In this document: positions 63,058 through 63,220 of the stretch, piece after piece | How positions within the stretch are numbered: position 1 is the stretch's first letter | How the letters are laid out: each line of letters opens with the position of its first letter | Origin: Pseudomonadota bacterium | Lineage (GTDB): Bacteria > Pseudomonadota > Gammaproteobacteria > UBA4575 | NCBI GenBank assembly: GCA_039182865.1 | Contig: JBCDBX010000003.1 | Span: forward strand, 1,343-65,342 | DNA length: 64,000 nucleotides | Direction: 5' to 3' | The notes under the pieces: model-generated | Seen by the model: only the letters and a program-made list of their open reading frames with translations | Told to the model about the DNA's origin: nothing | Database searches by the model: none | Translations under genes and position numbers: made by a program

Positions 63058-63086
63058 TTGTAAGTCACGCTTAGAAAGTTTAGATT
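63058..63086 (+). promoter_or_regulatory. sigma70-like promoter candidate for the mini-gene
   Basis: TTGTAA (63058-63063), a 17-nt spacer, then TAGATT (63081-63086). Confidence 0.35.
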
Positions 63087-63120
63087 ATATGTATCGTAAC
63101 GAATATTGAAGGAGGTGATC

Positions 63121-63165
63121 ATGTCTAAATCTGCTCTGACTATCCTTCCTTTCGCGCTCGACTAA
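63121..63165 (+). CDS. 14-codon mini-ORF (MSKSALTILPFALD) with an exceptionally strong Shine-Dalgarno sequence
   Basis: AAGGAGGTGATC lies directly before the ATG (63109-63120). It is a 12-nt perfect complement of the conserved 16S rRNA 3' tail. The ORF has its own promoter-like and terminator elements. Confidence 0.35.
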   Translation: MSKSALTILPFALD

Positions 63166-63196
63166 ATCAGCTGAGACGCAAAGGAATAGCAAAGCA

Positions 63197-63220
63197 AGAA
63201 GGGGGCAATAGCCCCCTTCT
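63197..63220 (+). terminator. rho-independent terminator of the mini-gene transcript
   Basis: 10-bp perfect GC-rich stem AGAAGGGGGC / GCCCCCTTCT with the loop AATA, followed by the pyrimidine/T-rich CTTTCTGT. Confidence 0.7.

What the first reader, a model, noticed from the sequence alone, without database searches (positions are those of the whole stretch)
63058..63220. Stand-alone mini-gene: promoter, 12-nt perfect anti-SD match, 14-codon ORF and strong terminator
A compact unit lies between the OprD-like gene and tRNA-Phe, with no downstream gene on its strand. Its parts are:
- TTGTAA-17 nt-TAGATT.
- About 20 nt downstream of the -10, AAGGAGGTGATC immediately before the ATG. This is complementary to 12 consecutive nucleotides of the conserved 16S rRNA 3' end (…GAUCACCUCCUUA).
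- The ORF MSKSALTILPFALD.
- An imperfect hairpin (CCTTTCGCG…CGCAAAGG) spanning the end of the ORF.
- A 10-bp GC-rich terminator with a T-rich tail.

An SD of this length is far stronger than any other I saw in the window. Possibilities include a highly expressed micropeptide, a dual-function sRNA, a ribosome-engaging regulatory RNA, or a relic leader peptide whose structural gene has been lost.
Basis: partly seen in the sequence, partly recalled or inferred. Interest (0 to 1): 0.5.

Follow-up and report, generated by a model that had tools for sequence, protein, structure and literature searches.

The report
Orphan mini-gene with oversized ribosome-binding site
A 14-codon reading frame, preceded by a 12-base perfect match to the ribosome's mRNA-docking sequence, sits alone between a porin gene and a tRNA gene; it looks like the rare 'rre' mini-mRNAs of alpha-proteobacteria, but it is seen in this one species only and its expression is unproven.

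Summary
Only one is clearly beyond chance: AAGGAGGTGATC (63109-63120) directly before an ATG. It is the only complement of the 16S tail longer than 9 nt in 64 kb, in a genome whose genes have weak ribosome-binding sites.

The other parts are weak evidence:
- The promoter match (8/12) is at chance level.
- The 14-codon length is what random sequence gives.
- The "terminator" is a symmetric hairpin that could equally serve the convergent tRNA-Phe.
- The inner hairpin is more stable on the opposite strand.
- No antiterminator exists, so this is not an attenuator.

The unit lies in a 1.8-kb block (OprD-like porin plus this spacer) that relatives lack; in three of them LysR directly abuts tRNA-Phe. 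No homologue was found anywhere.

The closest precedent is the rreB/rreR small mRNAs of alpha-proteobacteria: 14-18-codon sORF, 16-17-nt SD, 30S-bound, weakly translated, function unknown. My best reading (about 0.4) is a lineage-specific rre-like, ribosome-tethered mini-mRNA. The rivals are a relic of acquired DNA and chance combined with tRNA terminator hairpins. Interest is modest.

The parts
63058..63086 (+). Putative sigma-70-type promoter: TTGTAA, 17 nt, TAGATT (8 of 12 consensus positions).
   Evidence: Read. It is not listed by the promoter scan. Matches of this quality occur 4.5 per kb per strand, and the spacer holds no more of them than its shuffles do (3 observed against 3.8 expected). 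The geometry is plausible, but this is not evidence.
63109..63120 (+). Extended Shine-Dalgarno sequence AAGGAGGTGATC: 12 consecutive bases complementary to the conserved 16S rRNA 3' tail, ending at the base before the start codon.
   Evidence: Unique in the window, where the next-longest match is 9 nt. Predicted pairing is -20.8 kcal/mol against a median of -2.3 for 46 ORFs. It is partly paired in the predicted fold: mean unpaired probability is 0.38 for the 12-mer and 0.83 for the AUG.
63121..63165 (+). 14-codon ORF MSKSALTILPFALD with a TAA stop.
   Evidence: Codon usage is atypical: GC3 is 0.46 against 0.30, and the ORF falls in the lowest 1.5% of 13-codon stretches of the window's genes. 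It is not annotated in the deposited MAG, because the protein accessions on either side are consecutive.
63144..63153 (+). Pyrimidine tract CCTTCCTTTC inside the ORF. It can pair with the SD before the 3' arm of the long hairpin has been transcribed.
   Evidence: Folding the transcript prefix up to 63165 pairs GAAGGAGG with this tract (-14.7 kcal/mol). In the full-length fold the tract switches into the long hairpin. This is prediction only.
63132..63196 (.). Long imperfect hairpin covering codons 5-14, the stop codon (in the loop region) and 31 nt beyond.
   Evidence: It is more stable when read on the - strand (-27.2 against -21.9 kcal/mol).
63197..63220 (.). GC-rich 10-11-bp hairpin that could act as a bidirectional intrinsic terminator. 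It is the strongest terminator-like site in the last 20 kb of the window.
   Evidence: It is symmetric, with -19.5 / -20.1 kcal/mol and tail scores of 1.85 / 1.86. It forms in every ribosome-masking scenario tested.
63255..63278 (-). Context: a 9-bp AT-rich hairpin 19 nt past the tRNA-Phe 3' end, with a T-richer tail on the - strand. It is probably the tRNA's own first terminator.
   Evidence: I11. Tail score is 1.94 on the - strand and 1.12 on the + strand.
63297..63372 (-). Context: the tRNA-Phe (GAA) gene, convergent with the mini-ORF.
61587..62927 (-). Context: the OprD-family porin gene, divergent from the mini-ORF. The two start codons are 193 nt apart.
   Evidence: Pfam OprD, E = 1.5e-28.
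61515..63296 (.). Species-specific block (porin gene, spacer with the mini-gene, and hairpins) lying between the LysR gene and tRNA-Phe.
   Evidence: Relatives L167, L168 and L085 have LysR (or its remnant) directly facing tRNA-Phe. The spacer does not align to theirs, although the other side of the tRNA is 89% identical to L085. The same species in a second sample also has the porin gene (L166, 99.7% identical).

Best explanation
The unit is a lineage-specific, self-contained mini-mRNA of the 'rre' kind: a transcript of about 110-135 nt whose main property is unusually tight docking to the 30S subunit.

Proposed working (inferred, not shown):
- Transcription starts a few bases after TAGATT, at about 63093.
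- The 12-base SD can pair with essentially the whole single-stranded 3' tail of 16S rRNA and places the ATG in the P site.
- The ribosome then has to break a 12-bp helix and unwind the long hairpin that holds codons 5-14. Translation of the 14-residue peptide is therefore expected to be slow or weak rather than high-yield.
- The RNA's lifetime would be coupled to the bound ribosome.
- Transcription ends constitutively at the GC-rich hairpin (63197-63220), which it shares with the convergent tRNA-Phe. There is no regulatory switch.

The unit came into this species together with the divergently oriented OprD-like porin gene. What the RNA or peptide does for the cell is unknown, as it is for rreB.

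Shown: the sequence features, their rarity in this genome, the absence of an alternative structure, and the species-specific location.
Inferred by analogy: transcription, 30S binding, weak translation and ribosome-coupled turnover.
For: - The 12-nt complement of the 16S tail abuts an ATG. It is unique in 64 kb, about 10 kcal/mol stronger than the best gene SD, and about 0.005 copies are expected by chance.
- The layout is compact: SD, 14 codons, a long hairpin, and then the strongest terminator-like hairpin in 20 kb, which lies 31 nt after the stop.
- tRNA-Phe has a nearer hairpin of its own with a T-richer tail on its strand, so the GC-rich hairpin is not needed for the tRNA alone.
- The terminator forms whatever part of the ORF is masked by a ribosome, as expected for a stand-alone transcript and not for a leader.
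- There is a published precedent with the same anatomy. rreB is a 165-nt mRNA with a 14-aa sORF and 17-nt complementarity running into the start codon. It lies between a tRNA gene and a sensor gene, is bound to 30S and is weakly translated, and its start codon affects its stability. rreR has 18 codons, and an ATG-started copy occurs on an Azospirillum plasmid (PMC5711450).
- The same paper notes that a 12-bp SD helix uses almost the whole single-stranded 16S tail.
Against: - There is no evidence of transcription, and the promoter match is at chance level.
- The element is found nowhere else:
  - 171 related or otherwise fetched loci, by blastn, nhmmer and tblastn;
  - JGI metagenomes and IMG/VR, searched for the peptide pattern;
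  - plasmids and phages;
  - Rfam.
- It is absent from the nearest relatives.
- The complementarity is 12 nt, not the 16 nt or more used to define rre genes. At 12 nt a chance origin cannot be excluded if many genomes are screened.
- Both hairpins fold at least as well on the - strand.
- Codon usage is poor.
- The ORF length equals the random expectation.
Confidence: 0.4

Rival explanations
1. A non-functional relic of acquired DNA. On this reading the ribosome-binding site and first codons (or a short leader ORF) belonged to a gene that neighboured the porin gene in the donor. The rest of that gene was lost, and the frame now runs into unrelated sequence and the hairpins that close tRNA-Phe transcription.
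For: - The unit lies in a block that relatives lack, next to a tRNA-Phe gene that is an integration site in this clade. In L086 a tyrosine integrase gene starts 70 nt past the tRNA. The content after LysR differs in almost every relative.
- Both the SD strength and the codon usage are foreign to this genome. Extended start-proximal SDs are typical of Firmicutes such as S. aureus (PMC13009471), and an identical SD+ATG occurs in an unrelated phage gene.
- The peptide looks like the start of a membrane or secreted protein: polar MSKS followed by a hydrophobic run.
- The ORF length equals the random expectation.
Against: - The mini-ORF is not at the edge of the block. About 130 nt of hairpins that also belong to the block separate it from the tRNA.
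- The porin gene in the same block has ordinary codon usage for this genome.
- No trace of a lost gene body, integrase or att repeat is present.
- A 12-nt SD is rare even in SD-rich taxa (my knowledge).
- OprD homologues elsewhere have no divergent neighbour of this kind.
Confidence: 0.25
2. There is no + strand unit at all. The three hairpins (63255-63278, 63197-63220, 63132-63196) would be the 3' trailer and terminator stack of the convergent tRNA-Phe, insulating the porin gene from read-through. The purine-rich 12-mer followed by ATG would be a coincidence in the porin gene's upstream region.
For: - The hairpins fold as well or better on the - strand: -50.2 against -45.5 kcal/mol for 63093-63226, and -27.2 against -21.9 for the long hairpin.
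- Relatives also carry stacks of small hairpins behind tRNA-Phe.
- The promoter, the ORF length and the codon usage carry no signal for a gene.
- Complements of the 16S tail of 10 nt or more are common by chance: 8 were found in 1.15 Mb of fetched loci.
Against: An exact 12-mer is expected about 0.005 times per window. One directly followed by ATG, in an intergenic spacer and just upstream of hairpins, is rarer still, by more than an order of magnitude (my estimate). This would be a plausible coincidence only if very many windows were screened.
Confidence: 0.2
3. A relic or orphan ribosome-mediated transcription attenuator: a leader peptide plus terminator whose structural genes were lost.
For: The unit has the 14-codon length and the ORF-hairpin-terminator order of trpL- or pheM-type leaders. 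Terminated leader RNAs can have a life of their own, as rnTrpL with its 14-aa peptide does (PMC6614838).
Against: - No alternative (antiterminator) pairing exists. The terminator forms with the ribosome placed at initiation, at codons 9-10 or at the stop, and the best competing pairing is only about 6 bp, judged by reading the sequence.
- There is no run of one amino acid's codons.
- No Rfam leader family matches even at E = 10.
- There is no downstream gene.
Confidence: 0.05
4. The function lies on the - strand. GAUCACCUCCUU, a mimic of the 16S tail, lies single-stranded just 3' of the hairpins in a tRNA-Phe read-through RNA or in the porin 5' UTR, and it would pair with Shine-Dalgarno sequences.
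For: In the - strand fold the motif is entirely unpaired, directly after two strong hairpins.
Against: - The porin gene has no SD to pair with: a TTG start with -0.7 kcal/mol, and its homologue in L082 likewise shows no SD on reading.
- No complementary purine tract lies between the motif and the porin start (read).
- No promoter-like site is present on that strand.
- Genes of this genome mostly lack strong SDs.
Confidence: 0.05

Closest known systems
rreB / rreR small mRNAs ('ribosome-regulated expression') of alpha-proteobacteria (Hahn et al., RNA Biol 2017, PMC5711450)
   Same: - A stand-alone small transcript with a very short sORF: 14 codons in rreB, exactly as here, and 18 in rreR.
- Perfect complementarity to the 16S 3' tail that extends through the SD-to-start spacer right up to the start codon.
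- An RNA structure that involves the SD and the start of the ORF.
- A terminator close behind the ORF.
- rreB also lies next to a tRNA gene.
- An ATG-started copy exists on a plasmid in Azospirillum.
   Different: - 12 nt of complementarity instead of 16-17, and it stops before the start codon instead of including its first base.
- ATG rather than the usual GTG.
- The spacer between AGGAGG and the start is 5 nt instead of 7.
- The host is a gammaproteobacterial MAG, whereas rre genes are reported only from Caulobacterales, Rhizobiales, Rhodobacterales and Rhodospirillales.
- No clade-wide conservation; rre genes are conserved within families.
- No expression or 30S-binding data.
- Sequence similarity could not be tested, because the rre sequences are not held in text form.
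Attenuator-derived small RNA rnTrpL with its 14-aa leader peptide (Sinorhizobium; PMC6614838), and classical trpL/pheM leaders
   Same: A short terminated transcript carrying a 14-codon ORF followed by hairpins and an intrinsic terminator. The liberated RNA can act in trans.
   Different: rnTrpL sits upstream of trpE(G), is leaderless, has Trp codons and switches between alternative structures. Here there is no downstream gene, no regulatory codons, no antiterminator and an oversized SD.
STAB-SD of Bacillus thuringiensis cry3A mRNA (reviewed in PMC4113751)
   Same: An SD-like sequence near an RNA 5' end whose role is to hold a 30S subunit rather than to drive protein output. Ribosome binding governs RNA stability.
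   Different: STAB-SD is not followed by a start codon. It protects a long downstream mRNA from the 5'-3' exonuclease RNase J1, and it is known in Gram-positive bacteria. Here a start codon follows immediately and there is no downstream message.
Small RNA genes divergent from porin genes, e.g. micF upstream of ompC in E. coli (from my own knowledge, not checked here)
   Same: A roughly 100-nt terminated transcript encoded divergently from an outer-membrane porin gene.
   Different: MicF is non-coding and acts through an antisense seed against another porin's translation start. Here pairing with the adjacent porin's start region is no better than for shuffled sequence (p = 0.35). The RNA also carries an SD rather than an anti-SD seed at its 5' end.
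Ibs/Sib type I toxin-antitoxin loci (Rfam RF00113)
   Same: A small transcript of about 140 nt with a strong SD and a very short hydrophobic ORF. There is a weak full-length Rfam alignment on the + strand.
   Different: The Rfam score is 16.8 bits against a gathering score of 56, with E = 1.7 in a 900-nt search. The matched strand would be the antitoxin, not the toxin. Fourteen residues is too short for a membrane-spanning toxin; Ibs peptides are 18-19 aa (my knowledge).

Membership tests
rre small mRNAs (rreB/rreR) | [quoted passage not shown] This is the search criterion of Hahn et al. | tested here: not met
   12 nt (63109-63120). The flanking bases G63108 and A63121 do not extend the match to the conserved tail. 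The organism's own 16S sequence is not in the window.
rre small mRNAs (rreB/rreR) | The complementarity runs through the spacer into the start codon of a sORF of 14-18 codons. | tested here: met
   The match ends at the base before the ATG, and the ORF is 14 codons. It does not include the first base of the start codon as it does in rreB and rreR.
rre small mRNAs (rreB/rreR) | GTG start codon (ATG only in the Azospirillum plasmid copy). | tested here: not met
   ATG at 63121. In rreB constructs ATG gives more translation than GTG.
rre small mRNAs (rreB/rreR) | An independent transcript of about 165 nt with a mapped start site, an RpoD-like promoter and a terminator. | not testable with these tools
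   No transcript data are available. At sequence level a hairpin terminator is present and the promoter-like match is at chance level.
rre small mRNAs (rreB/rreR) | The RNA and peptide are conserved within a bacterial family. | tested here: not met
   No homologue was found in 171 loci, JGI metagenomes, IMG/VR, plasmids or phages. The element is absent in relatives L085, L167 and L168. The only same-species contigs stop short of it.
rre small mRNAs (rreB/rreR) | Strong association with 30S subunits, weak translation and start-codon-dependent stability. | not testable with these tools
   These are experimental properties. Only the predicted -20.8 kcal/mol pairing is available.
Ribosome-mediated transcription attenuators (leader peptides) | Mutually exclusive terminator and antiterminator structures controlled by ribosome position. 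| tested here: not met
   The terminator forms under all three ribosome-masking constraints and in all low-energy suboptimal folds listed.
Ribosome-mediated transcription attenuators (leader peptides) | A run of codons for the regulating amino acid, and regulated genes downstream on the same strand. | tested here: not met
   The peptide MSKSALTILPFALD has no such run. The next features on the + strand side are the tRNA-Phe, yggX and mutY genes on the opposite strand. No Rfam leader family matches.
Type I toxin (Ibs) / Sib antitoxin | A match to the family covariance model at the gathering score, and a hydrophobic toxin ORF of at least 18 aa on the opposite strand. | tested here: not met
   16.8 bits against 56. 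The opposite-strand ORFs (35 and 40 aa) are not hydrophobic and are not on record as proteins.
Base-pairing sRNA regulating the adjacent porin | Complementarity to the target's translation start region that exceeds chance. | tested here: not met
   The duplex energy with the porin start region is -31.4, against a shuffled mean of -30.4 (p = 0.35). With a short start-region window the porin scored well above (weaker than) the mean of the 46 ORFs: -12.2 against a mean of -19.8.
Bidirectional intrinsic terminator between convergent genes | A GC-rich hairpin with a U-rich tail on both strands. | tested here: met
   63197-63220 gives -19.5 / -20.1 kcal/mol, tail scores of 1.85 / 1.86 and 5 / 4 T in the first 8 nt. 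Both tails are weak compared with a canonical T-tract (5.1).

The most novel reading that the evidence does not exclude
Hyper-extended-SD mini-mRNAs are not confined to alpha-proteobacteria. On this reading the element is a gammaproteobacterial, horizontally mobile version that uses a 12-bp helix with the entire free 16S tail to tether a 30S subunit. It would act as an RNA (a ribosome-bound regulator or sensor), travelling with an outer-membrane porin gene, rather than through its 14-residue peptide.
Probability: 0.12. Interest if true: 0.6.

Novelty: new variant of a known kind. Interest (0 to 1): 0.3.

Why it matters
If real, this element would be the first rre-like mini-mRNA outside the alpha-proteobacteria. 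It sits in a genome whose ordinary genes have weak or no Shine-Dalgarno sequences. Here the signature (extended SD abutting a start codon, tiny ORF, hairpins) is not linked to any one peptide sequence, and it sits on a block of DNA that related genomes lack, so it may be carried on mobile DNA.

The function of rre genes is still unknown. A second, independent lineage with a shorter helix and an ATG start would give a natural variant for asking what matters: 30S tethering, the peptide, or ribosome-coupled decay.

If it is a relic or a coincidence, the lesson is practical. A 12-nt SD plus a nearby hairpin is not enough to call a gene, and tRNA-adjacent spacers collect such debris.

Tried and rejected
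- **Fragment of a 16S rRNA gene on the - strand.** The match to the 16S end does not extend beyond the 12 nt on either side (read, compared with the E. coli 16S end from memory), and no rRNA hit appears in Rfam.
- **Primer or vector contamination.** The 12-mer is the start of the universal 16S reverse primer AAGGAGGTGATCCAGCC, which explains the 971 literature hits. The window diverges after base 12 and lies in the middle of a 65-kb contig.
- **Target-site duplication.** By eye, TTGTAAGT (63058) and CTGTAAGA (63226) suggested that the mini-gene is an insertion into the spacer seen in L085 and L168. Local alignment of the window spacer with those spacers is no better than with shuffles (p = 0.24 and 0.52), whereas L085 and L168 align to each other strongly. 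Rejected.
- **att-site repeat.** No repeat of the tRNA-Phe 3' end exists elsewhere in the window.
- **Other copies.** No other copy of the element or of its hairpin exists in the window.
- **Synteny through the porin gene.** The nearest homologues (56-65% identical) sit in unrelated contexts and have no comparable upstream element.
- **Searches for the peptide.**
  - A degenerate pattern for MSKSALTILPF gave 0 hits in JGI metagenomes and 0 in IMG/VR.
- **SD + ATG + Ser-Lys pattern in IMG/VR.** One hit, an unrelated phage gene with a long reading frame.
- **Small ORFs on either strand of the spacer (35-40 aa).** None is on record as a protein.
- **Weak Rfam matches.** SraG, sraA, FsrA and SIB all score far below their gathering scores, and in the two alignments shown (SraG, sraA) the confident part is the GC-rich hairpin.
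Full report
**1. What is in the sequence**

Reading 62400-64000 confirms every motif at the stated coordinates:
- TTGTAA at 63058-63063, 17 nt, then TAGATT at 63081-63086.
- Twenty-two nt later, AAGGAGGTGATC at 63109-63120, directly followed by the ATG at 63121.
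- The frame ATG TCT AAA TCT GCT CTG ACT ATC CTT CCT TTC GCG CTC GAC TAA, which reads MSKSALTILPFALD and ends at 63165.
- Hairpin arms CCTTTCGCGCTC (63148-63159) and GAGACGCAAAGG (63173-63184). In the predicted fold these extend to a long imperfect hairpin at 63132-63196.
- A perfect 10-bp stem, AGAAGGGGGC/GCCCCCTTCT, at 63197-63220.

- An OprD-family porin gene on the - strand, 61587-62927 (Pfam E = 1.5e-28).
- tRNA-Phe on the - strand, 63297-63372.
- yggX and the end of mutY on the - strand.

Nothing lies downstream on the + strand within the window.

**2. Which parts exceed chance**

Only the ribosome-binding site clearly does.
- The 12-mer is unique in the window. The next-longest complement of the 16S tail is 9 nt and is not in front of a start codon.
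- With up to one mismatch the expected count is 0.19 per window. That implies roughly 0.005 for the exact 12-mer.
- Across the 46 long ORFs, predicted pairing of the 22 nt upstream of the start with the 16S tail has a median of -2.3 kcal/mol and a best value of -10.5. The mini-ORF scores -20.8. This genome mostly uses weak or no SDs, which makes the site a strong outlier.

The other parts are not distinctive.
- The promoter is an 8/12 match. The scan tool reports no promoter-like site in 62700-63700.
- Even 9/12 matches are no more frequent in the window than in shuffles (62 against 72.5).
- 8/12 matches occur 4.5 times per kb per strand.
- At this base composition a random frame runs about 15 codons before a stop (my calculation), so a 14-codon ORF carries no information.
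- The ORF's synonymous codon choice is poor for this genome: it uses CTG, CTC, GAC, TTC, ATC and GCG. It falls in the lowest 1.5% of 13-codon stretches of the window's genes, with GC3 of 0.46 against 0.30.

**3. Both strands**

- The GC-rich hairpin is the strongest terminator-like site in the last 20 kb, but it is symmetric. It gives -19.5 kcal/mol on the + strand and -20.1 on the - strand, with tail scores of 1.85 and 1.86, where a canonical T-tract scores 5.1.
- The long inner hairpin is more stable on the - strand (-27.2 against -21.9 kcal/mol). Its z-score is not significant on the + strand (-1.1) and is -2.2 on the - strand.
- The whole 134-nt unit folds to -45.5 kcal/mol on the + strand (z = -4.2) and -50.2 on the - strand (z = -4.6).
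- The structure therefore cannot be assigned to the mini-gene's strand. It could belong to the 3' trailer of the convergent tRNA-Phe.
- The tRNA does have a nearer hairpin of its own (63255-63278), with a T-richer tail on its strand.
- Relatives also carry small hairpins behind this tRNA.

**4. Tests of specific mechanisms**

*Attenuator.*
- Folding transcript prefixes shows a transient pairing of the SD with CCTTCCTTTC inside the ORF.
- The terminator nevertheless forms with the ribosome placed at initiation, at codons 9-10, or at the stop codon. There is no antiterminator.
- There is also no run of regulatory codons, no downstream gene and no Rfam leader hit even at E = 10.

*sRNA against the adjacent porin.* Pairing with the porin's start region is no better than for shuffled RNA (p = 0.35).

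*Type I toxin or Sib.* The Rfam score is 16.8 bits against a gathering score of 56, and the peptide is too short.

*Other checks.*
- A 16S gene fragment, primer contamination, a repeated element and an att repeat were each checked and rejected.
- Rfam has no family match in the window other than the tRNA.
- The deposited annotation has no gene between the porin (MEM8843642.1) and YggX (MEM8843643.1).

**5. Comparative evidence**

*The source.*
- The window comes from a 65.6-kb contig of a MAG labelled only Pseudomonadota, with about 38% GC.
- Its nearest YggX relatives are uncultured Gammaproteobacteria, in part from marine metagenomes, at 85-89% identity.

*Searches with no homologue.*
- blastn, nhmmer and tblastn against the 165-170 loci held at the time (171 were fetched in all).
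- A degenerate pattern for the peptide in JGI metagenomes and in IMG/VR.
- Plasmids and phages.

*What LysR homologues showed.*
- Same species: a second sample, SRR22824305, is 99.7% identical over 60096-62735 and also has the porin gene beside LysR. Its contigs stop at 62735 and resume at 63342, so the mini-gene is not covered.
- L167 (LysR 86% identical): the LysR stop codon is followed after 54 nt by tRNA-Phe.
- L168 (LysR 82%) and L085 (YggX 89%): they share a 150-200-nt LysR-to-tRNA spacer with no porin gene and no mini-gene.
- Other relatives have still other genes after LysR.
- L086: a tyrosine integrase gene starts 70 nt past tRNA-Phe.

*The contrast across the tRNA.* The non-coding DNA on the other side of the tRNA is 89% identical between the window and L085 (E = 2e-27). 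The 369-nt spacer holding the mini-gene has no detectable match in these relatives.

*Conclusion.* The block 61515-63296 (porin gene, mini-gene and hairpins) is specific to this species and lies at a recombination hot spot. The porin gene itself has ordinary codon usage. Because the whole block is absent, this speaks for recent acquisition and says nothing either way about constraint.

**6. Precedent in the literature**

Hahn et al. (RNA Biol 2017, PMC5711450) describe rreB in Bradyrhizobium:
- It is a 165-nt stand-alone mRNA with an RpoD-like promoter and a terminator, lying between a tRNA-Gly gene and a sensor gene.
- It encodes a 14-aa peptide and carries 17 nt of perfect complementarity to the 16S 3' end that runs into the GTG start.
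- It is stabilised when the start codon is replaced by a stop codon.
- Over-expression has no phenotype, and its function is unknown.

Analogues with 16-17 nt occur in four alpha-proteobacterial orders. These include rreR (18 codons) and an ATG-started plasmid copy in Azospirillum. The same paper notes that a 12-bp SD helix already uses almost the whole single-stranded 16S tail.

The element here has the same anatomy: complementarity through the spacer up to the start codon, 14 codons, the SD and the start of the ORF involved in structure, and a tRNA neighbour. It fails the family's defining threshold (12 nt, not 16 or more), starts with ATG, sits in a gammaproteobacterium and is not conserved. 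It may therefore work like an rre mRNA, but it cannot be filed as a member.

**7. Verdict**

- *Best reading (about 0.4):* a lineage-specific rre-like mini-mRNA. It would dock very tightly to 30S, be translated slowly into a 14-residue peptide while the ribosome unwinds the long hairpin, and end constitutively at the shared GC-rich hairpin. The sequence features and their rarity are shown. Transcription, 30S binding and weak translation are inferred by analogy.
- *A relic of acquired DNA (about 0.25).*
- *Coincidence of a purine-rich 12-mer with the tRNA-Phe hairpin stack (about 0.2).*
- *Minor options (about 0.05 each):* an orphan attenuator, and a - strand 16S-tail mimic.

**8. Limits**

- No transcript data exist for this organism.
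- Its own 16S 3' end is not in the window.
- The genome-wide and clade-wide frequency of 12-nt-or-longer complements next to start codons could not be measured, because the collection scans were exhausted.

Noticed in passing
window 63385-63473 (between yggX and tRNA-Phe); L085 3617-3705 and 3512-3585: A non-coding stretch upstream of tRNA-Phe is 89% identical to the relative L085 (E = 2e-27) and is present twice in tandem there. Inside it, 63421-63437 is a 19-nt near-copy of the tRNA-Phe anticodon arm (p about 0.01). It may be a remnant of a tandem tRNA-Phe gene or a conserved tRNA promoter/leader element.
   Followed up: partly
L086 1102-2286 (tRNA-Phe at 957-1032): In a relative with 85% YggX identity, a tyrosine integrase gene (Phage_integrase plus an Arm DNA-binding domain) starts 70 nt past the 3' end of tRNA-Phe. 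This tRNA is therefore an island integration site in the clade.
   Followed up: yes
L085 3950-4634; L167, L168, L169, L170, L171: The junction after the LysR gene differs in almost every relative: tRNA-Phe directly, a fatty-acid-hydroxylase-like membrane protein (judged by eye from the translation), a large PAS/GGDEF protein, or small ORFs. In L085 only the last ~20 codons of LysR remain, next to a truncated short-chain dehydrogenase gene. The locus is a recombination hot spot.
   Followed up: partly
window 62927 (porin start); L082 ~195: The OprD-like porin gene appears to start at TTG with no Shine-Dalgarno sequence. Its 65%-identical homologue in L082 also has an in-frame TTG preceding an equivalent signal peptide.
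   Followed up: partly
whole window (46 ORFs of 89 aa or more): Genes of this organism have very weak ribosome-binding sites. Median predicted pairing with the 16S tail is -2.3 kcal/mol, and only one gene (58280-59128) has a 7-nt SD. This is unusual for a member of the Pseudomonadota and worth checking on the whole genome.
   Followed up: partly
window 63125-63140 and 63162-63177: There is a direct repeat inside the mini-gene: CTAAATCTGCTCTGAC (codons 2-7) and CTAAATCAGCTGAGAC (stop codon and hairpin loop/3' arm), identical at 13 of 16 positions and 37 nt apart. It could be chance or a trace of a small duplication.
   Followed up: no
window 2884-8193, 29451-32873, 33364-39318, 49819-52236: Three very large ORFs (1769, 1140 and 1984 aa) were not examined. 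An 805-aa ORF has no NCBIfam match.
   Followed up: no
L165 4184-4204 (IMG/VR contig): The identical 15-mer AAGGAGGTGATCATG, followed by Ser-Lys codons, starts an unrelated long reading frame in a GC-rich viral contig. It shows that this exact start site also occurs in front of ordinary genes in SD-rich genomes.
   Followed up: yes
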